DNA of 64,000 nucleotides from a virus: IMG/VR virus record IMGVR_UViG_3300031087_000014; one strand, written 5' to 3'. Numbering within the stretch: the stretch's first letter is position 1; each line of letters opens with the position of its first letter. Under the pieces are notes generated by a model. It was not told the DNA's origin, did not search any database, and saw nothing but the letters and a program-made list of their open reading frames with translations. A program made the position numbers and the translations under genes. This document shows positions 1 to 64,000 of this stretch, piece after piece.

Positions 1-1
1 A

Positions 2-457
2 GGTCTAAAGCTTAAGACATATAAGGACACAGAAGGTTACTGGACTATCGGGATTGGTCATCTTTTAACTAAGAAACCATCCTTGGACGTAGCAATAAGT
101 GTTTTGGATTCCCAAGTAGGGAGAAAGACTCAAGGGTCTATCACCGAAGACGAAGCCCGAAAGCTGTTCCAAAGTGATGTTAACTCTGCTGTTAAGTCGA
201 TCAAGGTTGATTCAACACTCGGCCCACTTTACGCCAAATATGATGATGCAAGGAAACAAGCACTGATTAATATGGTTTTCCAAATGGGGAGTGCAGGCAC
301 TGCATCTTTCAAAAATAGCTTAGGCTTGATTGCGGATAAGAATTACGCAGTTGCTGGGGCTAATATGAGGAAGAGTAAGTGGTATCGCCAGACACCGAAT
401 AGAGCAGAACGTGTTATTAAGGTGTTAACAACAGGCACATTTGATGCCTACAACTAA
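2..457 (+). CDS. e: T4-type lysozyme (GH24), 5'-truncated by the window edge
   Basis: Frame 2 reads GLKLKTYKDTEGYWTIGIGHLLTK...ALINMVFQMG...KSKWYRQTPNRAERVI..TGTFDAY, colinear with T4 lysozyme. The ORF-track start at 83 is internal. Confidence 0.93.
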   Translation, partial: GLKLKTYKDTEGYWTIGIGHLLTKKPSLDVAISVLDSQVGRKTQGSITEDEARKLFQSDVNSAVKSIKVDSTLGPLYAKYDDARKQALINMVFQMGSAGTASFKNSLGLIADKNYAVAGANMRKSKWYRQTPNRAERVIKVLTTGTFDAYN

Positions 458-488
458 TTAAGGGGCTTTGCCCCTTTCAGGAGCAATA

Positions 489-1223
489 ATGGGAAAGAGT
501 AGCCGTAAGTCTATTAAATCTTTTGATACCTCCGCACCACGTAGCAAATATCAAGAGAAGAACGCAGAAACAGCACCCGATTATAAGCTGGGAGATTTCA
601 TCCCTACCGAAAAACAGAATCAGATTGTCAATAGTATCGAATGGAATGATCTGACCATCGTAAACGGTAAAGCTGGTACGGGTAAGACCTCTACCGCACT
701 TTGGGCTGCAATCAAGAAGCTCAAGCAAGGGGAAACACGTAGAGTGCTATTCCTCAAGAACCCAACAGAAGTAGGTGACGATCAGATTGGCTTCCTTTCT
801 GGTGACAAAAAGGATAAACTTGTCGCTCACTATGCTACAACAAAAAGAGTGTTCCATCAGTTTGTATCACCAGGTAAGTTAGAGTCAGATATTGCCAATG
901 GTAAGATTGAACTTGAAATTCCAAACTACGCTTTAGGTGCGACTTGGGATGATTCGATTGTTATCATTGACGAGAGCCAGTTAATGTCGCCTGAAACAAT
1001 CAAGCTACTGCTTGAGCGTACAGGACAGAACACAAAAGTGGTAATTGTTGGTGATGTGACGCAAACTTACGCAGTTAAGAAGCGCCAGAACGGTTTAGCA
1101 GATTTAGTAAGTAGAGTAACCGACAACGGAGTTCCAAACAGGGACTTTATCGGGTATATTACGCTGGAATCTGAGGACAACCAGAGGTCAAGACTTTCTC
1201 AGTACATTACTGAGGTATATTAA
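489..1223 (+). CDS. phoH: PhoH-like ATPase
   Basis: GKAGTGKT Walker A, IGFLSGD, IIDESQ, VIVGDVTQ, NGLADL and RSRLS motifs; AGGAG RBS before ATG 489. Confidence 0.92.
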   Translation: MGKSSRKSIKSFDTSAPRSKYQEKNAETAPDYKLGDFIPTEKQNQIVNSIEWNDLTIVNGKAGTGKTSTALWAAIKKLKQGETRRVLFLKNPTEVGDDQIGFLSGDKKDKLVAHYATTKRVFHQFVSPGKLESDIANGKIELEIPNYALGATWDDSIVIIDESQLMSPETIKLLLERTGQNTKVVIVGDVTQTYAVKKRQNGLADLVSRVTDNGVPNRDFIGYITLESEDNQRSRLSQYITEVY

Positions 1224-1264
1224 ATAAGCAATGGGCAGGGAAGCCCTTATAACGAGGAGAATGT

Positions 1265-1741
1265 ATGCAGTTAGTTGAGATTGATCGTAGTGGTGTTGAA
1301 GCCTGCTATCAGGCAGGTATGGTTAAGCCAAACGAGTTTCGTCAGATTTTTATGGATCTTCTTGCAAAAGAGGTACAACTTCGGTTAGAGTCCACCACTC
1401 CTTTCCAGGTAGTGTCTGCTCTGTTCACTCAAGAGTACTTTCTTGAATTCTATCAGAAGCTGGCGGGAACAAAAGATGATTTAGTTCAATGCGTGATCGA
1501 TATCGCAACTTCCGAGCCAGAACTGCTGCTGATCGACCAAGAAGAAGCTAAACGCCTTTTCTTGAGCTATGTGTTCTACCGTAAAGCAGTTATTGTCCGT
1601 GATTGTAGTGATATCTTTAAGCACGAGCTAGTAGAGTCCAGCACGATTATGGTTGACAAAGAAACCCTCCGTGCTATAGAATACTTATCCGTCCATTCCT
1701 CCGGTGGTCGGGACTTAATTAAAACTTATTATCAAAACTAA
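1265..1741 (+). CDS. hypothetical protein
   Basis: GAGGAG RBS, 158-aa ORF in the operon. Confidence 0.75.
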   Translation: MQLVEIDRSGVEACYQAGMVKPNEFRQIFMDLLAKEVQLRLESTTPFQVVSALFTQEYFLEFYQKLAGTKDDLVQCVIDIATSEPELLLIDQEEAKRLFLSYVFYRKAVIVRDCSDIFKHELVESSTIMVDKETLRAIEYLSVHSSGGRDLIKTYYQN

Positions 1742-1750
1742 GGAGGTTGA

Positions 1751-2486: not shown

Positions 2487-2494
2487 GGAGAAGT

Positions 2495-2920
2495 ATGTTA
2501 ATTACTAAAGTGGAAGTATTGGCGAAACATTTCGCCTTTCAGCAAACGAGGAAGCTAGGCAGAAACCTACGAATCGCAATGGCACGTAAAATGTATTGGG
2601 TGCCTGGAAAAGGCATCTTCGGGAATTTCTATGACAACTACACCAACGTGTTTGGTGAGGCAATGTTAAAGAATCCTAAAAATGAAGAGATCCTTGATAC
2701 GTTGCTTGCAATGGATAAGATTTCCGTGGTAAACTATAATTTACTAGCCTTCTATGACGAAACTATGCAGGGTGAGGAGATGTTCCAAGCCCTGTTAGCT
2801 AAGTTTGAAGATAAAGAAGAACTTGACATTGATGAAAGATGTGTTAATATCGTCAGGTTCCTCGGAGACTTCAATGAAGAGACTCACGAAGGTAAGGGTG
2901 TGAAATGCCCGCAACTTTAA
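2495..2920 (+). CDS. hypothetical protein
   Basis: AAGGAG RBS, 141-aa ORF. Confidence 0.7.
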   Translation: MLITKVEVLAKHFAFQQTRKLGRNLRIAMARKMYWVPGKGIFGNFYDNYTNVFGEAMLKNPKNEEILDTLLAMDKISVVNYNLLAFYDETMQGEEMFQALLAKFEDKEELDIDERCVNIVRFLGDFNEETHEGKGVKCPQL

Positions 2921-3426
2921 AAAAGAAGTCTGAAAGAAATGCAAATGACTACTACCCAACACCAGACTCAGCTATTGAGCCAATGTTGAATGTAATCAAC
3001 TACGGTAGCATTGTAAAGGATTGGCGATTTGCTGAACCTTGCCGTGGAGAAGCAAAAGCAATATACAAGTACTTGCCTTTTGGAAGCGAGTACTGTGAGT
3101 TATCGGAAGGGAAAGATTATCTACTGTCTGAATGGAATGAAAAGCCAGATTGCATAATCACAAACCCGCCCTTCTCGATAGCTACCGAATTCTTAGAGAA
3201 GAGTCTTGCAGAGGCTGATGTTTGTATTTTCCTCTTGCGACTTGGCTTCTTAGAATCTGTGAGACGAAAGGAGTTCCACGATAAATATCCAGTGGATCAT
3301 CTGATTGTCCTCAGTAAGCGTCCATCGTTCTCGGGAGACGGAAAAACAGACGGCACAGCTTACGCTTGGTTTGTCTATGATCCGAAGAAGAGATTAGGAC
3401 TACAAAAATCGATATATGTCGTATAA
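2905..3426 (+). CDS. DNA N6-adenine (amino) methyltransferase
   Basis: DYYPTP, EPCRGE (motif I variant), IITNPPF (motif IV), LRLGFLES..R, AYAWFV. Confidence 0.85.
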   Translation: MPATLKKKSERNANDYYPTPDSAIEPMLNVINYGSIVKDWRFAEPCRGEAKAIYKYLPFGSEYCELSEGKDYLLSEWNEKPDCIITNPPFSIATEFLEKSLAEADVCIFLLRLGFLESVRRKEFHDKYPVDHLIVLSKRPSFSGDGKTDGTAYAWFVYDPKKRLGLQKSIYVV

Positions 3427-3439
3427 TTAAGGAAATATA

Positions 3440-11750: not shown

Positions 11751-12449
11751 TTAGCTATTCTCTAAGAACACAGCTTGGGCAAAGCCCCGAGGAGTGAGAG
11801 AGCGGATCATTTTAGTCTTTGCAGACTTGCCTCCCAACTTTTTGTATTGTACAGAGAATCCTTCATCTAAGTCAACAGGTTTCTTCTCTGGCATCTTAAA
11901 GCCTTCGCTCACCCACAGACAGGTTTTCTTTGGATAAGCATCTCTTGCCTTGATAAACTCAGGGAAAGCCGGATGCTGGTCGTCTTCCGGTAAATAACCA
12001 CCATACTCGTGAGGGTTAAATATGTGGTTTGGCTTTCTCCACATAGAAGACAGAACACTTACGGGATTCTCGATCATATACTCTGCCATATATTTCTCAG
12101 CCAGTTCCGCAGCAATCTTAGCAGTAGCAACAGCCTTCTCCTGGAACAGAGGATCTTTCTCCCGCTTAGCTTCAAAATGACGAGCACCACTTACAGCCAT
12201 ATCAGTGCAAGGAGGAAAGGCAAAGATTAGATCTGGAGCCTCAATCATCACACCGTTTACACGTTCACCAACAGGATCGAAGCCAGGCTCAATCCACTGG
12301 TTTACATAATGCATATTAGGATGCTGTACTTTGCACGAATATTCTCCGTGGTCGCCTTCGTCTGCATTGAACAGGAAGACAGTGTGACCTGCCTCCGCCC
12401 AATCCTTAGCCGCATATCCCGATCCATCAAACAAGGAAAAGATAATCAT
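11751..12449 (-). CDS. C5-cytosine DNA methyltransferase (phage Dcm-like)
   Basis: SLFDGSG (motif I), FPPCT (catalytic PC), ENP (motif VI), KKTCLW, RSLTPRGFA. Confidence 0.85.
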   Translation of the reverse strand: MIIFSLFDGSGYAAKDWAEAGHTVFLFNADEGDHGEYSCKVQHPNMHYVNQWIEPGFDPVGERVNGVMIEAPDLIFAFPPCTDMAVSGARHFEAKREKDPLFQEKAVATAKIAAELAEKYMAEYMIENPVSVLSSMWRKPNHIFNPHEYGGYLPEDDQHPAFPEFIKARDAYPKKTCLWVSEGFKMPEKKPVDLDEGFSVQYKKLGGKSAKTKMIRSLTPRGFAQAVFLENS

Positions 12450-12637
12450 TCGACACCTTCCCACACAGGGAAAGCAAGTCCATCGTCAGTATACACTTCT
12501 CCAATGGCTTGACAGTTATTGCAAGAGATATGATCTCCATCGTAAAACCAGTTAGGTTTCGTTGCGTCTGTTGTTACAGTAACATTGGATGCTCCGCAGT
12601 TATCACATTCCATCCAATCACACACTACTTTTTGCAT
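12446..12637 (-). CDS. Zn-ribbon protein
   Basis: CDNC...CNNC. Confidence 0.65.
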   Translation of the reverse strand: MQKVVCDWMECDNCGASNVTVTTDATKPNWFYDGDHISCNNCQAIGEVYTDDGLAFPVWEGVE

Positions 12638-19982: not shown

Positions 19983-22201
19983 TCACTCCACCTCTTGTTC
20001 GAAAACCACTTTAACATTCTTTAGCTTGCCTGCCAAGTCCCTGCCTTGTTTTTCTTTCAAGGCTTGCATCGCATCGTCAAATGTATCGAAGGTACGATCA
20101 TAACTATCAGAATAACAATGCTCTTGTAGAGTGTGCCAGAACAGGGAACTTTTATACTTAACCTTGAAGGTGGTACGTTCATCACCCCAAGTGTAACACA
20201 CAATCTGATATTTCATTACTCCTCCTTGCCATCGATGTTACCAAGGAATACCAGAGTACCGTTATTCATCTCTTCTGTCAAATGCTGGAGGCTGGTGAAG
20301 TTGGATTCCGCACCATTCTTATCTAAGCAGGAGATGTATGTTCCTTCTACATCAATACTGTCCTGCTGAATGACCAGCATTTCACCTGGGCGACGACAGC
20401 CTGCCCGTTTGGTAAACTGGAACACATCGCCAAAGCGAACTTCGGTAATTTTAACAGTAGCGGTAGTTACAACGGTATCAGTCTTTTTCATTTTATTTCT
20501 CCTTAGTGGAATCGAATTTCAAGTTTGTTTTCACCCATAGGCACTGCACGAGCACACCGCAAGGTTTCAAAATAGCCAACGTAGAAAACGTGGATCTGAG
20601 TACGGATGCCTTCGGATGTTTCCAGGCTAATAGCAAACTGCCAGTAGTCTTTATCTTGCGCTGTACACCAAGCTTTGTCAACTACATCCTTCAACACTTC
20701 GGATTTAAATCGACGACCAGATGTTCCACCAGAACGGACATAGCGATCATTCCAAGCTCGGTCATACTCTTCTGCCAGCTTGTAGTGCTCTTCGATATCT
20801 TTCAGAGCCTGTTCTGCTAATTGAACATTGTCAAAGATCAATCCTAAGTCTTGATCATTACGCTCTTCGCTCCCGAAGGAATCTCCGGTGGTGTAGTCAA
20901 TAAGGATTTCGTATTTCATTTGTCCTCCGGTATGTTTAACATCTCTAACACCCACTGGAGGGTATTACATTGTGTCTGTAGTTGTAACCTAGCCTCTGAT
21001 CCAAGTAGAGGGAAGGATGCTTGAGATAAGTCATCGTTTTTAACAGCATCAACCAATACAGAAAACCGCTTTTTAAATATCTCTGCTGCTTCTGGAGTAC
21101 ACTCTACACCAGTTGATCGACAAGGTAAAGCATAAACCTGAGAAATCAGCCTATCTCTGTCACGTTGATAGGCAGACTCTGAGGCTGCTTTGGCAATAAT
21201 TAACTCTCGCTCTCGTTTTTGTTCTTCCACTTTAAAGATGAAAGAGAAGAGATTAGCACACTCTGTGGCAGTAAGAGAGGATGGAGAACTAGAATAACGA
21301 GCGTCACTCTCCCGATCATAGATCGAATACTGAGTACGAACTATTTCTAGCTTAACATCACCAATAATCAGACCATAACAAATTCTTCGGCTGTCCAATA
21401 CAGAATCCGTGCGTACTCTTGCTACCTCTACCGAACCATTCACAATACCTTCCTTGATCCTGGACAACATCTCAGAGTCAAACTGAGAGTTATCCTCGGC
21501 AGGGATAGGCTTAGTGGTACTATCGTTCAACCCTTTTAAGAAATTAATCACATATCCTCCTAAAACTCTTTATTGTCAACGTAGTATTGAATGGCCTCAG
21601 CCAAACCCATACCACCTAAGCTCCAGCCATTGATACAAACATACGTGTCTACGATGTATCTGTCAATGACATTTCCTTCGTCATCGTGCTTTGTCCAAGC
21701 CATTTTCTCACGAGAGATACTTACTTGGTTGTTTACGATGAAATCAAACATCTCCTCTTTTGTTAACACTTAGATACCCTCCCTCATCAAACTTCATATT
21801 TCCTCCTTAAGGCTGCGCCTTTAGAACGCTTCGCGGGAGGCTTCGCCTTTCCCCGCTACGCTTGTTGCATCCGTTTAATACTACCTTCACTCTTTTTCCC
21901 GAAAGTCAATTAGAATGAGGCTGTAAGCGTCTTGTTCTGAAATGTTCCACTCCAAAGCTTTCTCCACCACCCAGATATCGTGGTCATAAGCTGTCACCTC
22001 TGCTTCCCAACACCAATCAGGATCTGGATGTTTATCTAGGTTGTTACAGTGATTGATCGCTACTTGGCGTCTCTCTACCATATCAGCCTTCTCTTTCTCC
22101 AGTGCTTCTCTTTCTACTGGAAGTAAACGCTGAATGTGTTCATATCCTACCATCGCTTCGCTCCTCTTAACGTTCGGCACTTTGTGCCTCTCTTGTTGCA
22201 T
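19983..22201 (-). CDS. cluster of hypothetical proteins
   Basis: ORFs 19983-20216, 20216-20491, 20503-20919 (YTTGDSF), 20916-21551, 21560-21769, 21887-22153/22201. Confidence 0.6.
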
Positions 22202-22225
22202 CCGTTAGATCTGTATGTGTACAAT

Positions 22226-22423
22226 TTAGTGTACGATTGTCCAACCCGTCTTCTGCCATTCGTCACCCTTATACCAACGAGACATATTGTACTCACCTTC
22301 ACAGTAGATGACACCATTAATCATCTGAAACCATTCATCACAACAGAAGTGACGATGCTTCACCTTATCCCCTTCACTCATTGCTTTCTGCGCTTCTTCC
22401 CAAGACAAGTTGTACATTTTCAC
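22226..22423 (-). CDS. DUF2829/Tad2-like small protein
   Basis: LSWEEAQKAMSEGDKVKH at the N-terminus and GWTIV at the C-terminus match the family pattern F.EAL.A.K.G.KV.R...DW.IV. Confidence 0.45.
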   Translation of the reverse strand: MKMYNLSWEEAQKAMSEGDKVKHRHFCCDEWFQMINGVIYCEGEYNMSRWYKGDEWQKTGWTIVH

Positions 22424-23940
22424 TCCTCTGTGTGTATAACGGAATATTTTGACGTGGGGGGTGTGATACTCCCCGTCACTTGAAGTATCAGCCTACTCCT
22501 TCCCGAAGAAAATATCAAGGGGTATTTCAATAGAGATCTTCGTTCATCTCAATCAACGTTGTAGATTGATATGTATTCCCTATTAATAAATGGGGAATTT
22601 ACCTAATAATAATAGGTAATATGTCTATAATATTTCTGCCAGTATACCCGAATAATTTGACGCCCCTATCTGTGTAATTTGCCCCGAAATATATCGAGAA
22701 AACAGACAGAGTGCCTAACGCGGATTTTTGCCCCCGCCTGATTTTCAGATTTCAAGCCGCCCAAATATCACAATGGTTTCAATAGCTTACGTAATTATAT
22801 CATATCAGAGTGAAGGAGTCTATGATCATTTCGTGCTATCTCCAAACATTCCCGAAAATACTATCATTTCTTTATTAATCAATAACTTAGAGAGTGGAGA
22901 ATACGATATATCACTTTCAAGCTCGAATCGTTCACTAATCAACCAGTATTCACCTGACAACAGCGCAGCGCTCACTATCACAAACCGCTGAAAAGTGCAA
23001 TTTATTCGGGATCTCAAAAAACGCACACTTTTACAGATAGACGCTCAACAACCTACGGTAGTTTTGCTCCGAAACCATAATGATCCTGATTATTAAATAA
23101 ACAATAATAACGTTGTGTTATCATCACAGATGATTCCCTGTTTCACGTTGTGACGATTGTCAATGATGACAATATAATAACGGAAAGAAACGATAACGTT
23201 TCGTTAGAAACTTAAGTTTCCCACGAAGGCACCGAGGAAAGCGAGAGCTTTTCGAGAGTGGTTTAGTTCCGTTATTATATTGTGCGTAAGGTGGTGTCCT
23301 CACGCCCAATAACTATTATTGCTCAAATAGTTTCGCTGCGCAATCATTATTTCCCGAGATATTACCGCTTCGCAATTGTTCTTCCCGAAATGATGATAAT
23401 AACCTACGGTATAATTTCCTTATGAAACATTAACAACATAAAACATTTTAGTATGTTTATTGGTTGTTAGTGTATTGTCAGTTAGTGTAATCTTTCCCGA
23501 AAGCGATTGTTACTTAGATAATAGTTAGAATGCACATAGTAACGTGTGGTTATTATTACTTAGTTATCAATAACATATGTTAGCGTTTGTGTGTTGATTG
23601 TTTCCTTTGTTTACTATTGCACTTTCATAGATGCAGGTTGTTTAGTGTGTTAATTGAGAGCTATTATCATTTATTCACTGTATTGAATAACCATTCATTA
23701 AGATGCGTTAAAGTGTGTTAGTGGGTTGAATAACTGCATAATTGCCAATTGTTCGCCTTCTCAGGTTGTCTGTAAGCCATTCTAAGAGGCTTTTACTGTT
23801 AGCTGTGTGTTGATATGGATTGAGAGAGATTCACCGTTTAAGCAGTTTTTGCATAAATGCACTGTGACGGTTATTGATAGGCAAAATCTATTGGAAACTT
23901 GCAGACAAAATAAAAGGGCTTTTCAGCCCTTGTTTTGTTG
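22424..23940. other. 1.5 kb non-coding block with hairpins and short repeats (left flank of the early island)
   Basis: No ORF with a credible RBS; repeated TTCCCGAAA, AACCTACGGTA and TTAGTGT; long stem-loop at 23170-23283. Confidence 0.8.
23912..23937 (-). terminator. terminator closing the early island
   Basis: AAGGGCT-GAAA-AGCCCTT-TTATTTT on the - strand. Confidence 0.75.
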
Positions 23941-24400
23941 TTCCTTGCTTACATAAAGCCAAACGCTTTACAAGCTTTATTTCTGCGTTCGATCACTTTT
24001 AAGATTGCCTCTAAATTCTGCTTTGTGATGTAGTTGCGTTCCATTGCTTCCCGAACATTGACACGATAAGCGCCGAACCCCTCACGAATGATCAGGATGT
24101 TATCCAGTGGGGTGAGCATTACCCCTGCAACCTCCTCAGAGAAGAAAAGCGCGTTTACTTCGTATTCGATATTTCCATCATTCACACTTTCGATCATAAT
24201 GTCAGTACGAACAGCCCAGGCGTAACAATCGTGAATCAGGGTTGTTTGATCTTGGGTTAATGTTCTGTTGCTGATTGCGTGAGTCAGAGCAGCCGCACCA
24301 AAAGTTTCCGCGATAGTGATAACATCGTTAAAGGTGGTGATAGCGAACATAATAAAACCCTTTTTGTTTGTGGGTTGCTGTATTGCTTCCCGATGAAAAG

Positions 24401-24431
24401 ATTATACGACAAAAGCCCCTTTCGGGGCAAG
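24401..24431 (-). promoter_or_regulatory. sigma70 promoter with embedded GCCCC-GAAA-GGGGC hairpin
   Basis: TTGCCC-cgaaaggggcttttgtcg-TATAAT; near-identical copies at about 25584-25612 and 25843-25872. Confidence 0.75.
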
Positions 24432-25879
24432 TGTTTTGATCATTTGTTTGTTATTCTTTTTCCAGCGGTTCAGCCTCATAACCTAGCGTTCTTATGTCAA
24501 ACAATGCTTGATCAATCTCGTTGATCTTCTTCTGAAAGAATTCCCGCCGTGCTTGTAGCTTATCATCTAGCTGTGATAGGGCTTGCGCTACTGTCTCGCC
24601 TTGTGCGTATACAGTGCCATTGTCACGCCCTGGCATATTGCCTGCTGATGCACTTGCAGACCAATAACCGCGCTTAGAGAAAAACACCTGAAAAGTGCTA
24701 ACCTGGAAAACTTTTGTTTTTAATACGTGACAAAAACGGATCATTTTCTTTCGCCTTCTATTGCATCAATAAACGCGCTAACATCCATCGTAAAACCTAA
24801 AGCGCCAGCCCGCTTGCAAGGGAGATCGCGCAAATACTCTATATTGCCTTCCATTGCTATAGCTGTTTCAAGGTCTCTTAATGCTTTGTGCAAGATATGT
24901 GAATTCGGGTAGTCTCCTTGTTTCATTCTATCACCTCATAGCCAATTGTTTCACACCAGGAAAGCGCCTGATCTTTTGTCTGGAATCTTGCACCCTCTAC
25001 CGCTTGATTTTCCCGATAGCCTGACATTATTTTCAGAGTATAATCAACCTTATTACGATAACGATTAGTGATTATTTTTACTCTCATTATTTCCACGCTT
25101 TAATTGATCTTTCTAGCTTAGGAATGCTAACCTTTAAGGCTAACATTAAGTTAACTTGCTTAGGTGTCCAGGTATCTTGATCCTGCAATTCTTGATAACG
25201 CTTCTTATCATATGCTAATTGCTCTTTTTTCCTTTTCAGGGTTAATCTACCGTGCCAGGTAAAGCCGCTAATAGTGTTATTCATTTTATCACCTATGAAA
25301 GAAGAGCAAAAGAACCGCCAATGATGAAAGGAAGATCATAGCGGGTGAAACGCTTGTACCGCATCCACTGAATGATCACAAAGGAAAGCAACTGTAAAGC
25401 GTCGATCACGTTGTTTGTGATGTTCACGCTTTCACTATTAAACATCATTTCGCCTGTTACGTTGAATGCAACGTTTGACACGTAAGCACAAACTACAGAG
25501 AACAAACAAGCCTTGATAAGGCTAGTCTTTGATAATGTCTTAATAATTGCTTTCATTTGTTACACCATTTGAGCCAAAAACCTATTATGCACTATTGCCC
25601 CTTTCGGGGCAAGCATTATCAATAAATGATTTTCTCGCAGGTCATAGCGTTATGATCTTTCATTGACATAGTGATCGAACCTGTGCGGAGATCCCAATCA
25701 AGATTCAGCTTTTGTGCGTGAGTTATTTCGAATTGTCCGAGATTATGATAGGCGTAATACTTACCTGATACGATTTCTAAGCCAGTGTGAGAGATTGAGA
25801 TAGATTCTTGCATTTTGTTTTACTCTTTGATGGGTGAAATAAGATAGTAACATTGCCCCCTTTCGAGGGCAAGCATTAT

Positions 25880-26233
25880 TTAATCTTTCTTTGCTTCTTT
25901 CCAGTGAGTCAGATTAATAACGCCTTTTGCTTTCATCTTCTCGATCAAGTCGCTTGCAGTGTTGAAAGAATTTTTATAATAAGTCACTGTGTCGCAATAG
26001 CCTGTAGCTTTATCCTCAAAATCTTCACAATGAATCTTTCCGATGATAAGAGAGTTTAAAACGTAATGTTCGCCGGTGTACCAGTTATGCAAGTGAATCG
26101 AACAAGAAAAATCATCGCTCGGGCCTTCTGGCGTCATACACGCGATCAAATCCTCGCGCTCAACAACTAAACCCCAAACGTGATCTACATCACCGGGAGT
26201 TTTTACAGTAGCGTTTACGTTGATAGTTTTCAT
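25880..26233 (-). CDS. hypothetical early protein (start revised to MKTINV)
   Basis: A promoter TTGCCT-16-TATTAT and a leader hairpin lie inside the 5' extension given by the ORF track. Confidence 0.65.
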   Translation of the reverse strand: MKTINVNATVKTPGDVDHVWGLVVEREDLIACMTPEGPSDDFSCSIHLHNWYTGEHYVLNSLIIGKIHCEDFEDKATGYCDTVTYYKNSFNTASDLIEKMKAKGVINLTHWKEAKKD

Positions 26234-26848
26234 TGTCGATTGCCTTAATCTTGTGAGGGCTGGCACCATTGCCGCCCAACACAGATATAATAACATAACG
26301 AGGATTAAAGGCAACACTTTGATCAAGAATGTTTGAAATTCTTTTGAGCTACATCTAAATGATCTTTTATTGCTTTGAGGCTTGACATATGCGCCAAATG
26401 CTCTACCTTTCCTTTCTGGCAATGCTTCTTAGTTAGATGATATCGAGCCAGTAGACAAAGATAATCGAAATCGTTATCATTTATCAGTTTATTGCAAATG
26501 CCGAAACGGCGGGATATTGGATAACCTTTAAGAGGGTTAAACGCATTGTGACGATTAGCGCCCATTAACGATCATCTTCAATCAAAATTATTTCATCGCT
26601 GAAATGATGCGTTACCATCTCACAACCTTCCTCCGTTATGTAATGAATTGACATATAATCGCCGTGATCAACTTCTGTAATCAGCAATGAGTATTGCTCA
26701 CCGAAACAGTTTTCACGCGCCAGGCGATCACCCGCTTGGATACATTCAGCCTTAATCATACGTGCTTTCATTTTGTTTTCCTTAGTGGTTAGCAGTATTG
26801 CCGCCCTTCTGATAAACATCATATCATAGTGAGCGACACGATCAACAC

Positions 26849-30959: not shown

Positions 30960-30972
30960 TTAAAAATATTCC

Positions 30973-33418: not shown

Positions 33419-33760
33419 TTATTCTGTTTCTTCTTCCTCGTCTTCTCCGAAACCTGATTCACACCATACTAAATCATTTGAGTTCTGAATGTCAATGTAA
33501 AGTTGTTCGTAGATGCGAGCCTGCAAAATCCGCGTAACATCTTTTGTCTCAGGAATCAAGCCGCTGTCTTCGAATTCGTGATCAATACCTTCTGATGCCA
33601 TTACTTGAAAGATTTCACTGTAGTAGTGAGGTACATAGCGATCCGCTACTTCGTGCAATGCATCGTGTGAATCGCTCATTTCAGTAAGGTTATCGCACTG
33701 GATACGCTCGTTAAAAGCGACGATTGCATTTGCCAGGATTTCAGTGTAAGTAACAGTCAT
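33419..33760 (-). CDS. ocr: Ocr (T7 gp0.3-like) anti-restriction DNA mimic
   Basis: [56 protein letters not shown] is nearly identical to T7 Ocr [56 protein letters not shown]. Confidence 0.95.
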   Translation of the reverse strand: [113 protein letters not shown]

Positions 33761-33844
33761 TTTTTCTTTCCTTCGTTGTCTTGTTAGTGTGAGAGTATTT
33801 TAATGTAAGCTATCGCTATTTGCAATAGCCTACTAAAAATATTC

Positions 33845-52534: not shown

Positions 52535-52638
52535 GCATTGTCCTAATGATCAATCATTGATTGACTAAAACCTGCTATTGGGGTATAATGAAGGAATACC
52601 CCTTTAGTGGGATCTTACCTTTTATAAGGAATATCTTA

Positions 52639-54450
52639 ATGGTAATTTTCGGACAACCTTATGGTGGTAGCAATAATGGAAGCACAACGCCTCCAGACGT
52701 AAGCGATCAAATCGCTGCTTATATTGCTGCACATCCTTTCTATCGCACATTCAAGTCTTGGGCAGAGCTTAAAGCAGCCAAACCAACGGCAACAGGTGAG
52801 CGAGTATTTCTTTCCTCTTATAACGCAGTGACTGACGGAAGTTTCCACGGAAGCGGTTGGTTTACTGGTAGCCTTGCAGGTAAAATTGCAGATGATGGCG
52901 GTGTACACGCTGCTGATAGCGGTAAGACTTATTTCTGGCTGCGTGAGAAAGAATACGACAAGTTAGACGTTACAGACTTTGGTGCTATGCCTGGTGCTAC
53001 AGTTGATGCTCAACCCGCTATCCAGCGAATGAATGCCTTCTCTAATACATACCTGTCTACCCTCGGAATCCGTTTCCCTGCTGGTAGTTTCCTTGTATCT
53101 GGTTGGGATTACTCTGCAACATACGTATCTAAATTCAAACTGGCTGGCCCAGATGTTGAGCTAGGATATATGGCAGTGACCACACTAGTACTTGACGGTA
53201 GCGCAGACTATGCATTTAAAGTGCAAGCACGTTATACCGAGATCACAGGCATCCTAGTTTATGGGCAATATGATAAGAAAGTCAATACAATGGGCTTCTT
53301 TAGAAATATTTGTTCTGCTGGTCAGTACGCTCGTATCAAATGTGTTCGCTTCTCATATATGGGAGGTAAGAGCCTAAGCCTGATCGATACCTTGGACACC
53401 AAGATTGATCAATTCTACAGTAGTTATACGTATGATAGCGTCCTAGATGTTACTTACGACAACGCAACTGTGGGGAACTGGGATCACTCAACAGCACTAG
53501 AGCTAAGTAACTTCAACCTGCAACACGGTTTTGGTAACGCAAGTATCTATGCACCAAGAGCGACACAGTGTTTCATCTACAATGGATGGATCGAGCATAC
53601 AGTACACGCTGGTGATTTGTCTAATGGACAATGGCTGATTGATGGACTCGACCTTGAGAATATTGATACTCCGTTTGATCTGACCTATTGCCGTGCATCT
53701 CTGCGTGGTATCAACCTGATTAACGCAAGCTTCAACAGAAGCAATGCAGCAATCAGTATGTGGTCTTCTGGTTATGATCAAGGAAACCGCCAAGACGAGG
53801 CATTCGGTAGCGTTATCAACGGTACAATGAAAGCTAAGTGGTACACTGGTGCTCTCCGTGGTACAAACAATGCCAACGCTAGTATGTGGCTAAACTTAGG
53901 TAGCTTCTATACCCCTAATAACGGCGGTATTTGGGAGATTGAGATCATTTCTCGCCTAAGCTATAACTCGGTGGGTAGCGGAAACTATCCTGTAACAGCC
54001 GACAGATCACCTGGTAAGACTATTATCAACATCCAACGTGGTGCTGGTAACGTCCCTATTGTGACAATGTATCACTTCGGTGCTACTGGTGTTACTGCGG
54101 CTCAGTATGCAAACCAGCAATACAATGAAACATTACCTTCACTGTGGGTTCAGTTTGGCCCTTACACTGGTGAATACGTCATTAACGTTAAGAGTACGTC
54201 TCCTACACGTTTCGATCAAGGTCAATGCGCATTGTTTACTGTTAGTGGTGCTACTCAGACTGCTTCTCCTGGCTTAAACGCTGTGACTCCTCGTATGTCT
54301 CTACATAACGGTAGCGCAGGTGTTGGTGCTCAGGGTAACTTACTTGCAGTTAGCACTGCAACAGGTACACCAACAACTCCAGGCACTGCTTCAACGCATA
54401 TGCAGGTGGTTGTCAACGGAACTGTTTACTTCGTTCCATTGTTCCTGTAA
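52639..54450 (+). CDS. AmsF/WceF-like exopolysaccharide depolymerase (tailspike beta-helix)
   Basis: VTDFGA..G..DAQPAIQ...IRFPAG.F beta-helix start; GNWDHSTALELSNFN, RATQ..I.NGWIEH...GDLSNGQW; own promoter TTGACT-17-TATAAT and terminator. Confidence 0.75.
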   Translation: MVIFGQPYGGSNNGSTTPPDVSDQIAAYIAAHPFYRTFKSWAELKAAKPTATGERVFLSSYNAVTDGSFHGSGWFTGSLAGKIADDGGVHAADSGKTYFWLREKEYDKLDVTDFGAMPGATVDAQPAIQRMNAFSNTYLSTLGIRFPAGSFLVSGWDYSATYVSKFKLAGPDVELGYMAVTTLVLDGSADYAFKVQARYTEITGILVYGQYDKKVNTMGFFRNICSAGQYARIKCVRFSYMGGKSLSLIDTLDTKIDQFYSSYTYDSVLDVTYDNATVGNWDHSTALELSNFNLQHGFGNASIYAPRATQCFIYNGWIEHTVHAGDLSNGQWLIDGLDLENIDTPFDLTYCRASLRGINLINASFNRSNAAISMWSSGYDQGNRQDEAFGSVINGTMKAKWYTGALRGTNNANASMWLNLGSFYTPNNGGIWEIEIISRLSYNSVGSGNYPVTADRSPGKTIINIQRGAGNVPIVTMYHFGATGVTAAQYANQQYNETLPSLWVQFGPYTGEYVINVKSTSPTRFDQGQCALFTVSGATQTASPGLNAVTPRMSLHNGSAGVGAQGNLLAVSTATGTPTTPGTASTHMQVVVNGTVYFVPLFL

Positions 54451-54682: not shown

Positions 54683-54688
54683 GGAAAA

Positions 54689-55702
54689 ATGAAGACAATC
54701 GTTAAAATGTTATTCGGTAGTAAGCTTTATGGTACAGACACACCTGAATCAGACACCGATTATAAAGAAATCTTTGTCCCTAGTGCTGAAAGTATCCTGC
54801 TCGGCACAATGAAAAATCATATGAGCTACAACACAGGTAGTGACGAAGTGAAAAATAGCGCAGAGGATATCGACTACGAGCTATTCAGCCTGCGTTACTT
54901 CATCAACTTGGGTATTGAGGGTGAAACATTGGCACTAGATATGATTCACGCGCCTATGGACAAGGTAGTTAAGTCTGATCTCCCTGCTGTATGGGCCGAA
55001 CTACAGGCAAACCGCTCTCAGTTCTACTCTACGGATATGAAATCCTATCTGGGTTATGTTCGTAAGCAGGCTGGAAAGTATGGTGTTAAAGGTAGTCGTA
55101 TGGCTTGTCTGCGTCAGGTGATGGAGGCATTAGAAGCGGCTCCGGCACAATCTCCAGATCCTAAGTATAATGGTGAACGTATGCGTAAAACCCGAGTTGG
55201 TGATATCGCACACACTTTACCCCTGAATGAATTCTGCGAGTGGATCACAGATGAAAACCAGCGTTCAGGCTTCCAGGACTTTTACGTAGTGTTGGCACGT
55301 AAGTTCCAAACCAGCGTTTCTGTGGAGGAGATGCAGAAGTCTTTGCAGAAAACGTGGGAAGAGTATGGTCATCGTGCTCGACAAGCTGAACTGAATGAAG
55401 GCATCGACTTTAAAGCACTCAGTCACGCGCTGCGGGGCGGCTTACAACTGAAAGAGATTTACTCTACAGGTGATCTGGTGTATCCTTTGAAGGATCGAGA
55501 ATACCTGATGCAGGTGAAAGCAGGTAGTGTCCCGTTCAAAGAGATCCAAGAACAACTCGAAGATGTGGTCGAAGAAGTTGAAAAACTATCTTCTCAGGCA
55601 AAAAAGAATGGTATGCGAGAAAAAGCAGATCCTACTTTCTGGGATAATTTCATCCGTGATGTTTACTTGGAAGAAATCTTGAGTGTGTACGGCCCGAAAT
55701 AA
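54689..55702 (+). CDS. Pol-beta superfamily nucleotidyltransferase (RlaP-like)
   Basis: FGSKLYGTDTPESDTDYK, GY...QA.KY..KG.R, DFKALSHA.R. Confidence 0.88.
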   Translation: MKTIVKMLFGSKLYGTDTPESDTDYKEIFVPSAESILLGTMKNHMSYNTGSDEVKNSAEDIDYELFSLRYFINLGIEGETLALDMIHAPMDKVVKSDLPAVWAELQANRSQFYSTDMKSYLGYVRKQAGKYGVKGSRMACLRQVMEALEAAPAQSPDPKYNGERMRKTRVGDIAHTLPLNEFCEWITDENQRSGFQDFYVVLARKFQTSVSVEEMQKSLQKTWEEYGHRARQAELNEGIDFKALSHALRGGLQLKEIYSTGDLVYPLKDREYLMQVKAGSVPFKEIQEQLEDVVEEVEKLSSQAKKNGMREKADPTFWDNFIRDVYLEEILSVYGPK

Positions 55703-57354: not shown

Positions 57355-58331
57355 ATGTACGTTAGTACTGGTAATACAGAGATGCGGGAGATTTATTTAC
57401 CCGCTGTAGCGTTTCAACTACTGGTTAAAGCCGCTAGCGAAGGTATCCAGTGGACTGCCTGCCAGAATGAAGACCCTCTTCCGGCTCGTTTGCAGGGTAA
57501 ACGTGTGTTTACTCTCTTTGGGGTACGGTATGTGGAAGAAGTAGTAGCCCCTACCCTCTTTGACAAGTATACGGGTAAGCCTAATATGGTATATCCTGTA
57601 GGAGCACGATAATGGATAAGAGTGTATTGATTGCTTGGGCAGAGAAAGAGCTTCACGATCCCCATACCCAAGAGGCTATTCAGAAAGCCGTTAAATGGTT
57701 GTCTGAAAAAGGCTTCACTTGGGCAGAACACGAGGTTGAAAAAATCCTCGCCTCTCTAAAAAAGAAAGATTGATATTACTCAGGGAGTGTCGTAAGATGC
57801 TCCCACACTTAACGAGGAGGGATTATGGACTATATCGGAAAATGCTACACAGTACTGAACGACGATGAAGAGACAATGAATCAGTGGCCCGAGATTAAAT
57901 CTGGTTTCTCGTTTCAAGTGCTAAGAGCAGAAAATCGTGATGACTGTTATTTCGGCGCAACACGAATCCGTTGTTTGGATACTGATCGGGTTTTCGATGT
58001 AGATTTCCCTCTCCACGACGGAAGTGAGTCTTGGTTCTGGTGCGTGGTTGCACTTTCGGATTTGGGAGAGGTTGCTCTTAAGCCCCTTAAAGAGCGCCCA
58101 TTGAAGCAGGAGCCTCTTGGCAGAGTACATATGAGTCACTTCCAGGGTAAAGAGGTGGACATTGCCTACGCTCTCTCTGCACTAGCCTCTCAAGAAGGCT
58201 GTGACGGTGAAGAGTATGATCTGATGGAAAAGGCATCACGCTATATCCGTTATCTGGAAACACAACTTAACGCTTGACTTTAGAAGCCAAAGCAACTAAC
58301 CTAACAACACTTAAAACAAAGAGGAACCATT

Positions 58332-61456: not shown

Positions 61457-62643
61457 GTACTAAGTTTATAGTATCAAAGTTCCCGTATGATGATGTAACT
61501 GTTCTTGTTAGTGATGGTAAAAGTCAGACAGGATTTTATGTAGGGGATTCCGCTCAAGAGGGTGTAATCACCCTAGAAGATTTCCTGAAAGCAGTAGATG
61601 TATCTAATTGGAAAGAAGATCAGCTTAAGCTGTTCACCAGCCCTCTGTTTAAAGATACACCAACTGGTCAAGTTATTGGTGAGTTCACCATCCCCGCAAC
61701 TACTTAAGGAGTTAAAATGGAAGCTATCTTTACTGTCCTAGTGTTTTTATTCTTTATCGCAATCTCGTTTTGCATTATGCTGATCCCGAGCTTTGTTCTG
61801 ATTTGGGCTTATGACCATATCGCAGCGCAGTTTAACTGGCACGTCCTAGAACTTGGCTGGGCAAATGTAATTTGTGTTGCCGTACTGCTTGTAATCGCAC
61901 GTAGTATTTTTAAGAAAAAGTGATTGACATATAGAGAGGGTGTGATATCCTTCTCTCACTAACAAAGACAAGGAGAAAATATGGAACAGCTAGTAGATAA
62001 TGCAGACTATCAACTGATGGTAGAAGTGGGTGACAGAAAGATCAAGTTTGACTATGCTGGTCACTTCACTGTCGGTGGAAAAACTATCCTGAGTCTTATT
62101 CGTGAAGATAACATTGCCTATTTCTACCAAGGGCAAGAAGGTGTTACGCACGAAGATACGATTGATGCCCTGAATAAGATCCTGAATGAAGGCTTTACAG
62201 CCCAGGCGATGAAGTGTATCAATGTTGGTGAAGGCTTCTACGATGTAGATTGTGCTAACAACAAAGGTATTCTGCGTCTTTACTTTGAAGACAAGGGTAA
62301 TGACAACTTCAACTTCTACAAAATGGAAGTTCTGTAACTACGAGGGACGGCGTATGGTGATTATTGTTATTGTGTTTCTATTCGTCGTCCTCTTTTTGGA
62401 GGGTATTCTATGAAGGTTATGCTTAAAATTGTTATTTTTGTTTTTCTGTGTGGATTGGCGGCTATCGCTCACGCAGCAGATATCAAGCAAGAAAAGGTTT
62501 ACAACGGCGGTTTCACTCAAGCGGATGTTCTGATCATCAAAGACAAAACTCACGGCGTAATGTGCTGGGTGTTTGATGGGGGTAATAACGTTACCTCCCA
62601 ATGTCTGCCAAAGTCTCAAGTAGAAAACTTTGATAAAGATTGA
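61453..62643 (+). CDS. hypothetical, membrane and secreted small proteins
   Basis: ORFs 61453-61707, 61717-61923, 61981-62337, 62410-62643. Confidence 0.6.
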
Positions 62644-62741
62644 AAATAAAGGTTGACGAGTAAAAAGATTCTGGTAAGATGTATCACATCAAGACGAGAT
62701 AGCTAGCAAATAGGTTGCTAGTTTAATAAAGGAGAGACAAT

Positions 62742-63806
62742 ATGAACACATTTATGAAGTACTACAAAATCCCTACAATCCTCTGGGGCATCGGTATTGC
62801 ACTTGGCGGTTATATCGGTTTCGCTGAAACTGGTACTGTAGCAGGAATGATTGAAGGTTTACTGGCGGTGATTATTCTGTCTGTCCTTGAGGTTTCTCTC
62901 TCAGCAGATAACGCAGTACTTAACGCTAAGAAACTGGCGGATATGGACGAAGTGTGGAAGAAACGTTTTCTCACCTGGGGTATGTTGATTGCTGTGTTCG
63001 GTATGCGATTAGTACTTCCGATTCTGATTGTAGCAGGCTTGGGTGAAATGACCCCGTGGCACGCAGTATGGTTAGGCTTTAATGACCCTAAACAGTATGC
63101 AGATGTTCTACAGTCTAGTCATCATCTGGTAGCGAGTTTTGGTGGTGCGTTCCTGTTAATGGTTGCTCTGGGCTTCTTCCTGGATGATGAAAAAGAAACA
63201 CATTGGCTGTCTTGGATTGAAAAGCCACTAGCTAAGATTGGTGGCGGTATTACGGCGCAGGTTGGTATTACTCTTCTGGCACTGATTGTAGCAAGCTTTG
63301 GTGCGGATCAGGCAGAACGTGTAGCTTTCTTAGCTTCTGGTGCGGTTGGTGTGATTCTGTTCTTAGGCATTCACTTCCTGTCTGAGTGGCTTGAAGCAAA
63401 AGACGAAGCAATGGCAGCAGCAACTGGTGCGGTAGTTAAAGCAGGTCTGGCAGGTTTCATCTACCTTGAGATTCTGGATGCGTCTATGTCGTTTGACGGA
63501 TTAATTGCAGCATTCGCTATCACACAGTACTTCTTGGTGATTATGATTGGTCTGGGTATTGGTGCGCTGTTTGTACGTTCAATGACTCTGCACGTACTTG
63601 AGTCTGGTCAGATGGGCGAATACCGCTATATGGAGAATGGTGCTTTCTTCGCTATCCTCTGCCTGGCAGTGATTATGCTCCTGAACTTCCTGATTGAAGT
63701 TCCAGAAGTGGTAACTGGTCTGATTGGCGTAGCTTTCTTGGGTGCAGCGGTTTATCACAGCCACGTACTTAACAAGAAAGAAGCTTTAGAAGAAGCAACT
63801 GAATAA
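62742..63806 (+). CDS. DUF475/TerC-family integral membrane protein
   Basis: LEVSLSADNAVLNA, FLTWGMLIAVFGMRL, YLEILDASMSFDG, YMENGA; multiple TM helices. Confidence 0.9.
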   Translation: MNTFMKYYKIPTILWGIGIALGGYIGFAETGTVAGMIEGLLAVIILSVLEVSLSADNAVLNAKKLADMDEVWKKRFLTWGMLIAVFGMRLVLPILIVAGLGEMTPWHAVWLGFNDPKQYADVLQSSHHLVASFGGAFLLMVALGFFLDDEKETHWLSWIEKPLAKIGGGITAQVGITLLALIVASFGADQAERVAFLASGAVGVILFLGIHFLSEWLEAKDEAMAAATGAVVKAGLAGFIYLEILDASMSFDGLIAAFAITQYFLVIMIGLGIGALFVRSMTLHVLESGQMGEYRYMENGAFFAILCLAVIMLLNFLIEVPEVVTGLIGVAFLGAAVYHSHVLNKKEALEEATE

Positions 63807-63811
63807 GAATA

Positions 63812-63835
63812 GAGCCTCCTTCGGGAGGCTTTTTC
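63812..63835 (+). terminator. rho-independent terminator
   Basis: AGCCTCC-TTCG-GGAGGCT-TTT. Confidence 0.88.
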
Positions 63836-64000
63836 GTTAAAGGAGAAAATAATGTTTGCAATGTTTGCCTTATGTATCGTACTCTTGGTTCTTCCGGTGT
63901 TGGCAATATGTTTCATAGTGTCAATTATCAAAAAACTTTTATAGGACAAGAGCTTGATTATTTTATTTCTATGCTGTACAGTGTTTATATTCCTGCCATC

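What the first reader, a model, noticed from the sequence alone, without database searches (positions are those of the whole stretch)
1..64000. CATG appears to be completely absent while GATC and other 4-bp palindromes are common
Seen: I found no CATG by eye across 1-22.4 kb and several later blocks (30-31, 47-48, 52.6-54.4 and 59.3-59.6 kb). About one per 270 bp would be expected from base composition. In those blocks His before G-starting codons is consistently CAC, and no ATG is preceded by C. GATC, CTAG, AGCT, GTAC, TGCA and ATGCAT occur freely. Of roughly 65 GGATC seen, none is GGATCC. Known: loss of 6-mer palindromes is common in phages, but total loss of one 4-mer implies strong, persistent selection. 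Inference: either a widespread host defence targets CATG and is not countered by Ocr or the two methyltransferases, or the phage encodes a CATG-specific nuclease or modifier that attacks host DNA and spares its own.
Basis: partly seen in the sequence, partly recalled or inferred. Interest (0 to 1): 0.75.

Follow-up and report, generated by a model that had tools for sequence, protein, structure and literature searches.

The report
CATG-free phage genome: restriction-site purge
This uncultured 148-kb phage and its sister lineage have removed every copy of the four-letter DNA word CATG by silent changes. This is the classic footprint of escaping a DNA-cutting host defence, here in extreme form, and related phages have each purged a different four-letter word.

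Summary
CATG occurs 0 times in the 64-kb window, against 192-238 expected, and it is the only one of the 256 4-mers that is absent.

The loss is made by silent choices:
- His before a G-starting codon is CAC in 95 of 95 cases.
- NCA before TGN occurs 0 times in 104.
- NNC before ATG occurs 0 times in 227.
- A synonymous shuffle expects 138±9 CATG in coding DNA.

A sister lineage, about 81% identical in DNA, has a complete 147,472-bp genome that I joined from two overlapping IMG/VR contigs. It also has 0 CATG against 446 expected. Replaying the 10,962 substitutions that separate the two lineages would create 145±13 CATG, so selection has been continuous.

The trait is lineage-specific. phAPEC8 and rV5 have normal CATG counts. 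Other relatives purge other palindromes:
- GTAC 0/64
- CTAG 0/249
- AATT 100/585

All of them also lack 13-27 six-base palindromes.

I found no nuclease gene in either CATG-free lineage. A Dam-family methylase insertion sits in the window's lineage only, so it is not the cause.

The best reading is avoidance of a CATG-specific host restriction system. The host was not identified; it is probably an Erwinia/Pantoea-like bacterium. NlaIII-family enzymes were not found in 301 related bacterial genomes.

This is a new member of a known kind. The scan has seen CATG loss before, in another window of this genome and in a cyanophage.

The parts
1..64000 (.). DNA free of CATG in coding and non-coding stretches. 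It also lacks 26 six-base palindromes (four of which contain CATG), and GGWCC, GRGCYC, YGGCCR and GGTNACC are absent or nearly so.
   Evidence: 0 CATG against 192-238 expected. The synonymous shuffle expects 138±9 in coding DNA.
33419..33760 (-). Ocr-type DNA mimic. It acts against type I R-M and BREX, not against type II enzymes.
   Evidence: tblastn gives 67-69% identity to the Ocr of Kayfunavirus and other T7-like phages of Enterobacterales.
11751..12464 (-). Small protein with cytosine-5 DNA methylase motifs (FDGSG, PPCT, ENPV, LTPRGFA). It evolves fast: 56% identical to the sister's copy. Its target is unknown.
   Evidence: phrog_757 'DNA methyltransferase'. Motifs seen in alignment A2. 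No Pfam, NCBIfam or PDB sequence hit. The AF2 model is poor (pLDDT 52) and its top fold match, M.HaeIII, is weak at E=0.01.
2905..3426 (+). 173-aa protein labelled 'DNA methyltransferase' by PHROGs only.
   Evidence: phrog_799. No Pfam, NCBIfam or PDB hit. 63% identical to phAPEC8 gp177.
52561..54450 (+). Amylovoran-type EPS depolymerase tailspike. It is the main clue to the host.
   Evidence: phrog_4250. 33-36% identical to depolymerases of Erwinia and Pantoea phages. Named homologues are nearly all from Erwinia, Pantoea or Mixta. 94% identical in the sister lineage.
57825..58277 (+). PinA-type inhibitor of the host Lon protease. Its best match is in T4-like phages of Erwinia.
   Evidence: Pfam PF10465. 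52% identical to Erwinia phages Cronus and IT22, against 41% for Klebsiella phages.

Best explanation
The phage is an uncultured member of the phAPEC8-like group of roughly 150-kb myoviruses (Stephanstirmvirinae and relatives). Tested relatives are cut wherever sites exist, so its DNA is presumably unmodified (inferred).

Its lineage has been exposed for a long time to a host enzyme that cuts DNA at CATG. The most likely agent is an orthodox type IIP restriction-modification system carried by part of the host population. Any genome copy that gains a CATG is cut when it enters such a cell, so new sites are removed as fast as mutation makes them.

Every CATG can be avoided by a synonymous codon (CAC for His, NCH before TGN, NNT before ATG). 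The purge therefore costs no protein change and has gone to completion. The same process, acting through other enzymes, removed some two dozen six-base palindromes in the whole family, and other four-base words in sister lineages.

Shown: the absence, its silent-site mechanism, its persistence across about 19% divergence, and its lineage specificity.

Inferred: that the agent is a host nuclease, and that the host is an Erwiniaceae-like bacterium.
For: 1. The word is a 4-bp palindrome, and it is the only 4-mer with O/E below 0.2 in this genome. In each of the five family genomes that have such a word, it is a palindrome.
2. The depletion is made entirely at silent sites and in non-coding DNA.
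3. The sister lineage has 0 of 446 over a complete 147.5-kb genome. The two lineages differ at 10,962 of 58,002 aligned sites. A site-independent replay of that substitution spectrum creates 145±13 CATG, and none is observed.
4. Depletion is graded and varied across relatives, as expected from host-specific R-M pressure: CATG O/E is 0.55 in G407, 0.78 in phAPEC8 and 0.90 in rV5; GTAC is 0/64 in the L140 lineage and 157/450 in phAPEC8; CTAG is 0/249 in G406; AATT is 100/585 in Citrobacter phage Tr1.
5. The co-purged degenerate words are classic enterobacterial type II sites, by my recollection of REBASE: GGWCC 0/128, YGGCCR 0/62, GRGCYC 0/57, GGTNACC 0/25.
6. Vequintavirinae and relatives were found experimentally to be exceptionally sensitive to R-M systems where sites are present (PMC8594841).
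7. Complete or near-complete elimination of type II sites occurs in about one tenth of phage genomes (PMC6286503).
8. No nuclease was found in the phage (see the rival explanation).
Against: - The host is not identified, and no CATG-specific system was shown in any candidate host.
- The NlaIII/IceA family (PF05315) was not found in 301 species-representative genomes of the GTDB family that holds Erwinia. It was found in only 2 of 400 Gammaproteobacteria and 1 of 72,556 plasmids.
- Five cultured Erwinia and Pantoea phages show no CATG depletion, with O/E 0.78-1.01. The agent is therefore not general to E. amylovora or P. agglomerans.
- When a genome still holds hundreds of sites, removing one gives little benefit under a simple model of host restriction. 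How the purge started is not explained.
Confidence: 0.62

Rival explanations
1. The phage itself encodes a CATG-specific endonuclease, an orphan restriction enzyme. It shreds host DNA or the DNA of competing phages, and the phage is protected because its own genome has no site. Sister lineages that lack GTAC or CTAG would carry nucleases of other specificity.
For: - The purges are absolute: 0/446, 0/249 and 0/64.
- Each such genome has lost exactly one 4-mer.
- Self-cleavage gives a constant cost per site, which explains how a purge reaches zero.
- No CATG system was found in the presumed host family.
- More than 100 small ORFs of unknown function remain.
- An earlier report of this scan (e1-5320700) proposed this for a CATG-free cyanophage. 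I did not check that claim.
Against: - No restriction-endonuclease, HNH or IceA domain appeared among about 75 ORFs scanned by Pfam, NCBIfam or PHROGs in the window, the sister's other half and the G406-specific genes.
- PF01844 found nothing in G001, and PF05315 found nothing in G002/G003.
- Two bacterial NlaIII-family proteins gave no tblastn hit in clade DNA.
- The one HNH protein (L027:3931-4557) has a 56%-identical orthologue in CATG-normal phAPEC8.
- Partial depletion of the same words in relatives (CATG 0.55, GTAC 0.35, AATT 0.17) cannot come from a self-nuclease.
- The lineage-specific methylase/ParB-like insertion is absent from the CATG-free sister.
Confidence: 0.12
2. CATG is selected against by a host factor that is not a classical type II R-M system. 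Examples are a restriction glycosylase, a phosphorothioate-dependent system, or a nuclease carried by a prophage or satellite that recognises CATG.
For: - The known CATG endonuclease family was not found in the candidate host family or on plasmids.
- GTAC, which a related lineage purges, is the site of the R.PabI-type glycosylases (PMC5388411 and PMC10273834, listed but not read in full).
Against: - There is no direct evidence.
- Palindromic 4-6-bp words are the signature of orthodox type II enzymes (PMC6286503).
- Species-representative genomes sample strain-variable R-M systems poorly, so the negative searches are weak.
Confidence: 0.18
3. The cause is not defence. CATG would be reserved as a signal for a phage DNA-binding protein (packaging, replication or transcription), or removed by a mutational or repair bias.
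For: None directly. It cannot be excluded, because the proteins are mostly uncharacterised.
Against: - A reserved signal should leave at least one copy, and there is none in 147.5 kb.
- A mutational bias would not act equally in all three reading frames, on both strands and in non-coding DNA while sparing the one-off neighbours. There are 3,304 words one substitution away from CATG in the window, and CATA, CATT and TATG are all common.
- Relatives with the same replication genes have normal CATG counts.
Confidence: 0.03

Closest known systems
Restriction-site (palindrome) avoidance in virulent dsDNA phages (survey: Rusinov et al. 2018, PMC6286503). The textbook extreme, from my own knowledge, is Staphylococcus phage K, which lacks all GATC.
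   Same: A short palindrome is removed completely from a large lytic phage genome by synonymous changes. Many six-base palindromes are removed too. The trait is specific to a lineage and not tied to a phage gene.
   Different: Here the word is CATG. The host and its enzyme are unknown. Close relatives have each purged a different 4-mer (GTAC, CTAG, AATT), which I have not found reported for this phage family.
NlaIII / HpyI (iceA-hpyIM) type II systems that recognise CATG; Pfam PF05315 for the endonuclease.
   Same: Same recognition word. An enzyme of this kind in the host would explain the purge.
   Different: No member was found in the phage. None was found in 301 genomes of the candidate host family, and the family is almost absent from plasmids.
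Chlorovirus CviAII, a virus-encoded CATG restriction-modification pair (from my own knowledge; the PBCV-1 methylome paper PMC7248222 was listed but not read).
   Same: A virus whose biology turns on CATG cleavage. It is the model for the rival reading that the nuclease is viral.
   Different: As I recall, the chlorovirus keeps its CATG sites and methylates them. This phage has no sites and no detectable cognate pair.
Escherichia phage phAPEC8 (Phapecoctavirus, Stephanstirmvirinae).
   Same: Gene order and content match: PhoH, HslV-like, DprA, Sir2, rml genes, UvrD helicase and AAA ATPase at 46-74% amino-acid identity. It shares the avoidance of six-base palindromes, with 18 absent.
   Different: phAPEC8 has 443 CATG (O/E 0.78) and instead depletes GTAC (0.35) and GGCC (0.39). 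It carries more tail fibres and no amylovoran-type depolymerases.

Membership tests
Restriction-site avoidance by a lytic dsDNA phage | The depleted word is a short palindrome of the kind type IIP enzymes recognise, and depletion far exceeds what composition predicts. | tested here: met
   CATG 0/192 in the window and 0/446 in the sister. It is the only 4-mer with O/E below 0.2.
Restriction-site avoidance by a lytic dsDNA phage | Depletion acts on the DNA word, through synonymous sites and non-coding DNA, not on the protein sequence. | tested here: met
   All three reading-frame contexts are emptied by codon choice. The synonymous shuffle expects 138±9 and the count is 0.
Restriction-site avoidance by a lytic dsDNA phage | Selection is ongoing, so the absence is not a frozen accident. 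| tested here: met
   Replaying the 10,962 substitutions between the two lineages creates 145±13 CATG; none is observed.
Restriction-site avoidance by a lytic dsDNA phage | The host population carries an enzyme that cuts the avoided word. | tested here: inconclusive
   The host is unknown. PF05315 was found in 0/301 genomes of the family that holds Erwinia, 2/400 Gammaproteobacteria and 1/72,556 plasmids. Other enzyme families were not tested, and one genome per species samples R-M poorly.
Restriction-site avoidance by a lytic dsDNA phage | The phage DNA is not protected by a general base modification. | not testable with these tools
   Indirect only: relatives are highly sensitive to R-M where sites exist (PMC8594841). 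The family does carry rml genes and four glycosyltransferase genes whose target is unknown.
Phage-encoded orphan restriction endonuclease with self-protection by site absence | A sequence-specific endonuclease gene is present in every site-free lineage. | tested here: inconclusive
   None was detected by Pfam, NCBIfam, PHROGs or tblastn. Many small ORFs have no detectable family.
Phage-encoded orphan restriction endonuclease with self-protection by site absence | The word shows an all-or-none distribution among relatives. | tested here: not met
   Intermediate depletion exists: CATG O/E 0.55 (G407), GTAC 0.35 (phAPEC8), AATT 0.17 (Tr1).
phAPEC8-like myoviruses (Stephanstirmvirinae and relatives) | Shared gene order and homologous core proteins. 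| tested here: met
   Helicase 66%, ATPase 49-52%, NrdA 73%, TerL 72% and portal 68% amino-acid identity, with synteny. There is no closer cultured relative.

The most novel reading that the evidence does not exclude
Each lineage of this phage family carries its own unrecognised four-base-cutting nuclease: CATG here, GTAC and CTAG in relatives. The nuclease would destroy host or rival-phage DNA. The phage tells self from non-self purely because its own genome lacks the word, with no protective methylation.
Probability: 0.1. Interest if true: 0.85.

Novelty: new member of a known kind. Interest (0 to 1): 0.5.

Why it matters
This is one of the cleanest natural examples of a restriction-driven genome purge: 0 of about 450 expected sites, held for the time it took two lineages to diverge by 19%. 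The whole family behaves the same way with different words (CATG, GTAC, CTAG, AATT).

That gives a set of closely related 150-kb genomes in which three things could be measured:
- the speed of a site purge;
- its population genetics;
- the host enzymes behind it.

It also predicts a common CATG-specific defence in a poorly sampled host, probably Erwinia- or Pantoea-like, where the known CATG endonuclease family was not found. In practice, the missing word could help match such phages to hosts, and it makes the DNA resistant to NlaIII-type enzymes.

Tried and rejected
Identity and host:
- There is no near DNA match among 50,697 GenBank phages.
- The first genome-contig scan, with the depolymerase, found nothing.
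- The second, with the TerC-like gene, gave only 43-47% matches in Acinetobacter and Massilia, which says nothing about the host.
- The depolymerase was not found in 401 sampled Gammaproteobacteria.
- IMG/VR holds no unrelated phage with a closely related depolymerase, so I could not test whether other phages of the same host also lack CATG.
- A 20-kb DNA search of 301 genomes gave one 33-nt match (31 of 33 bases). It does not lie in a CRISPR array, so I dropped it.
- A search for the sample accession numbers found no paper.

Causes I rejected:
- The lineage-specific insertion upstream of the window (L027:4631-7088: a 176-aa ORF, a 335-aa protein with ParB/DGQHR-like motifs seen by eye, and a Dam/D12-family methylase) looked like an R-M-like module. 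It is absent from the equally CATG-free sister. Citrobacter phage Tr1 carries the same methylase at 72% identity with normal CATG.
- The methylase is not related to the genes next to bacterial NlaIII-family genes.
- The HNH protein near the exonuclease genes has an orthologue in phAPEC8.
- The 18 G406-specific ORFs, scanned as a test of the self-nuclease idea in the CTAG-free lineage, gave no nuclease domain.

Other:
- The fold of the C5-methylase-like protein came out at low confidence (pLDDT 52) with only a weak M.HaeIII match, so it is inconclusive.
- The window lineage's own structural half could not be fetched; only the sister's is complete.
Full report
**1. The observation**

The window has no CATG at all. 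The expectation is 238 copies from base composition and 192 from a maximal-order Markov model. CATG is the only one of the 256 four-letter words with no copy.

The GGATCC remark is also right: GGATC 70, GATCC 67, GGATCC 0.

CATG is the extreme of something broader. Twenty-two six-base palindromes that do not contain CATG are also absent, each with 5-10 copies expected; examples are CTGCAG, GGATCC, GGTACC, GTCGAC and CAGCTG. Several degenerate sites are absent or nearly so. The counts below are for the sister genome (section 4); the window gives 1/50, 0/28, 0/27 and 0/9.
- GGWCC 0/128
- GRGCYC 0/57
- YGGCCR 0/62
- GGTNACC 0/25

**2. How the word is avoided**

I called 155 ORFs and looked at the three reading-frame contexts that can produce CATG.
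- His followed by a G-starting codon is CAC 95 times and CAT never. Elsewhere His is CAT in 60% of cases.
- Four-fold Ser/Pro/Thr/Ala codons before TGN never end in A (0 of 104, against 35% elsewhere).
- Codons before an internal Met never end in C (0 of 227, against 39% elsewhere).
- None of the 108 ATG start codons follows a C.

Shuffling synonymous codons within genes gives 138±9 CATG. The 7.5 kb of non-coding DNA would add about 26. The selection is therefore on the DNA word, in every frame, on both strands and outside genes. It has cost no amino-acid change.

**3. What the genome is**

The proteins place the window in the phAPEC8/rV5 group of roughly 150-kb myoviruses.
- UvrD-type helicase: 66% identical to Phapecoctavirus.
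- AAA ATPase: about 50% identical.
- PhoH, HslV-like peptidase, DprA, Sir2 and others lie in phAPEC8 order.

There is no close DNA match among GenBank phages. The phage is uncultured. The exact protein encoded at 54689-55702 occurs in 24 sample blocks of public assemblies, the longest contig being 148,080 bp.

Near-identical contigs from ENA, JGI and Logan assemblies are also CATG-free, so the absence is not an artefact of one assembly. Walking upstream of the window added 18 kb of the same phage, again with no CATG.

**4. A sister lineage and the test for continuing selection**

IMG/VR holds a second lineage whose helicase is 90% identical. Two of its contigs, 76,973 and 83,492 bp, overlap at both ends. 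They close into a 147,472-bp genome with 0 CATG against 446 expected.

Over 58,002 aligned positions the window and this sister differ at 10,962 sites (p = 0.189; 0.36 at third codon positions). I replayed the observed substitution spectrum, specific to codon position and strand, on the window sequence without regard to context. That creates 145±13 CATG (minimum 115 in 100 runs). Neither lineage has one. The word has been kept out continuously since the two lineages split.

Part of the window (about 20.9-31 kb) is 90-99% identical to the sister, while the rest is 70-85%. The two lineages still recombine, and both occur in the same JGI sample series.

**5. Distribution among relatives**

| Genome | Relation to the window | Word counts (observed/expected) |
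|---|---|---|
| phAPEC8, whole genome | helicase 66% | CATG 443/569; GTAC 157/450 |
| rV5, 50 kb | more distant | CATG 178/198 |
| G407, 149.5 kb | phAPEC8-like | CATG 287/526 |
| L140 lineage, 17 kb | helicase 72%, depolymerase 66% | CATG 75/83; GTAC 0/64 |
| G406, complete, 153 kb | portal 68%; TerL 90% to phAPEC8 | CTAG 0/249 |
| Citrobacter phage Tr1 | carries the window lineage's Dam-family methylase (72%) | AATT 100/585 |

- G406 differs from phAPEC8 at 21% of aligned sites. At most 2 of 148 aligned phAPEC8 CTAG sites survive in it, and since G406 has no CTAG at all those two are probably gap artefacts of the alignment. Control words survive at 35-53%.
- In every genome that has a 4-mer with O/E below 0.2, that word is a palindrome. 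All of these genomes lack 13-27 six-base palindromes.
- IMG/VR holds no relative between 90% and 67% helicase identity. The CATG-free clade, as sampled, is the window lineage plus its sister.

The picture is a continuum, from mild depletion to complete loss, with different words in different lineages. That is what host-specific restriction pressure predicts. It fits the literature. Elimination of orthodox type II sites is common in virulent dsDNA phages and complete in about a tenth of genomes (PMC6286503). Vequintavirinae and relatives were found experimentally to be exceptionally sensitive to R-M where sites exist (PMC8594841).

**6. Is the nuclease the phage's own?**

I looked for a nuclease in several ways.
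- Pfam, NCBIfam and PHROGs scans of about 75 ORFs showed no restriction-endonuclease domain. They covered the window, the sister-specific ORFs of the other genome half and the G406-specific ORFs.
- The NlaIII/IceA model (PF05315) found nothing in G002, the half of the sister genome outside the window region, or in G003, a 14-kb contig of the window lineage. The HNH model (PF01844) found nothing in G001.
- Two real bacterial NlaIII-family proteins, recovered, gave no tblastn match in clade DNA.
- The window lineage has an insertion 11 kb upstream of the window. It holds a 335-aa protein with ParB/DGQHR-like motifs (seen by eye) and a Dam/D12-family methylase. The sister lacks it, and Tr1 has the methylase with normal CATG. 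It is not the cause.

Partial depletion of the same words in relatives cannot be produced by a self-nuclease. I keep this reading at about 0.1, because more than a hundred small ORFs remain opaque and because self-cleavage would explain well how a purge reaches exactly zero.

**7. The host and its enzyme**

Both tailspikes are amylovoran-type EPS depolymerases: 52561-54450 in the window, and an 858-aa protein in the sister's structural block. Their best phage matches are Erwinia and Pantoea phages, at up to 48% identity. The named cellular homologues are almost all from Erwinia, Pantoea or Mixta. PinA is closest to Erwinia T4-like phages and Ocr to Kayfunavirus and other T7-like phages of Enterobacterales. 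An Erwiniaceae-like host is likely but not shown.

I could not find the enzyme.
- Five cultured Erwinia or Pantoea phages have normal CATG, with O/E 0.78-1.01. They do show other purges, for example GATC O/E 0.00 in LIMElight.
- PF05315 was absent from 301 species-representative genomes of the GTDB family that contains Erwinia sorbitola.
- It was present in only 2 of 400 Gammaproteobacteria and 1 of 72,556 plasmids.

These are weak negatives. R-M systems vary by strain, and other enzyme families can cut CATG. Still, the agent remains unidentified, which is the main gap in the explanation.

**8.

- Ocr is confirmed. It acts on type I and BREX systems, so it would not help against a type II enzyme.
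- The two 'methyltransferases' in the window are PHROG labels without Pfam, NCBIfam or PDB support.
- The protein at 11751-12464 does align with clear cytosine-5 methylase motifs. The structural check was inconclusive, with pLDDT 52 and a weak M.HaeIII top hit.
- It is only 56% identical between the two CATG-free lineages, so it does not track the trait.

**9. Verdict**

The mechanism of avoidance is shown, and so is continuing selection.

The cause is most likely a CATG-specific host restriction enzyme (0.62). A non-classical host nuclease (0.18) and a phage-encoded nuclease (0.12) are the live alternatives.

It belongs to a known kind of phenomenon and is an unusually complete example. The new element is that the family purges a different four-base palindrome in each lineage.

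Noticed in passing
L140 (Logan SRR29074724 contig, 17 kb) and L141: A third lineage of the same phage family (helicase 72% and depolymerase 66% identical to the window) has normal CATG (75/83) but no GTAC at all: 0/64 and 0/45.
   Followed up: partly
G406 = IMGVR_UViG_3300014004_000001 (loci L142-L149): A complete 153-kb phAPEC8-like genome has no CTAG (0/249). At most 2 of 148 aligned phAPEC8 CTAG sites survive, against 35-53% for control words. Its 18 specific ORFs show no nuclease domain.
   Followed up: partly
Citrobacter phage Tr1, OR515479.1 (loci L158-L165): AATT is strongly depleted (100/585) and so is GGCC (56/192). The host strain is named (Citrobacter sp. JL 978), so the matching enzyme could be looked for directly.
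   Followed up: no
L027:4631-7088 (same phage, about 11-13.5 kb upstream of the window): An insertion relative to both phAPEC8 and the sister lineage. It holds a 176-aa ORF, a 335-aa protein with ParB/DGQHR-like motifs (IQRD, VVDGNTR; phrog_2615) and a divergent Dam/D12 methylase with DPPY. The methylase's relatives are in Tr1, Mydovirus phages, Aeromonas T4-like phages and cyanophages.
   Followed up: partly
window 20900-31000, against the sister G001 26062-36206: This block is 90-99% identical to the sister lineage, while the flanks are 70-85%. It looks like recent recombination of the early-gene island between the two lineages.
   Followed up: no
G001 + G002 (IMG/VR contigs 3300031087_000234 and 3300031133_000010): The two contigs overlap by 7,640 bp and 5,353 bp at their ends. 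They close into a 147,472-bp circularly permuted genome, although IMG/VR lists each as a roughly 50% fragment.
   Followed up: yes
window 11751-12464 (-): A small protein with C5-methylase motifs that is only 48-56% identical among lineages whose genomes are otherwise much closer. It could be a fast-evolving modification enzyme of unknown target.
   Followed up: partly
L039:8332-10989 (sister genome): NAD-salvage genes that phAPEC8 lacks: a NAPRTase-family enzyme of 587 aa and a ribose-phosphate pyrophosphokinase-like protein of 296 aa.
   Followed up: no
window 57825-58277: The PinA gene is present in the window, L008 and L009. It is missing from the 148-kb contig of ERZ27252479 and from L011, which are otherwise near-identical. 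This is a presence/absence polymorphism within one phage population.
   Followed up: no
Pantoea phage LIMElight NC_019454.1: GATC O/E is 0.00 and AATT 0.38 in this T7-like Pantoea phage. Erwinia phage Ea9-2 depletes GCGC and CGCG (0.24 and 0.28). Erwiniaceae phages therefore carry strong purges of words other than CATG.
   Followed up: no
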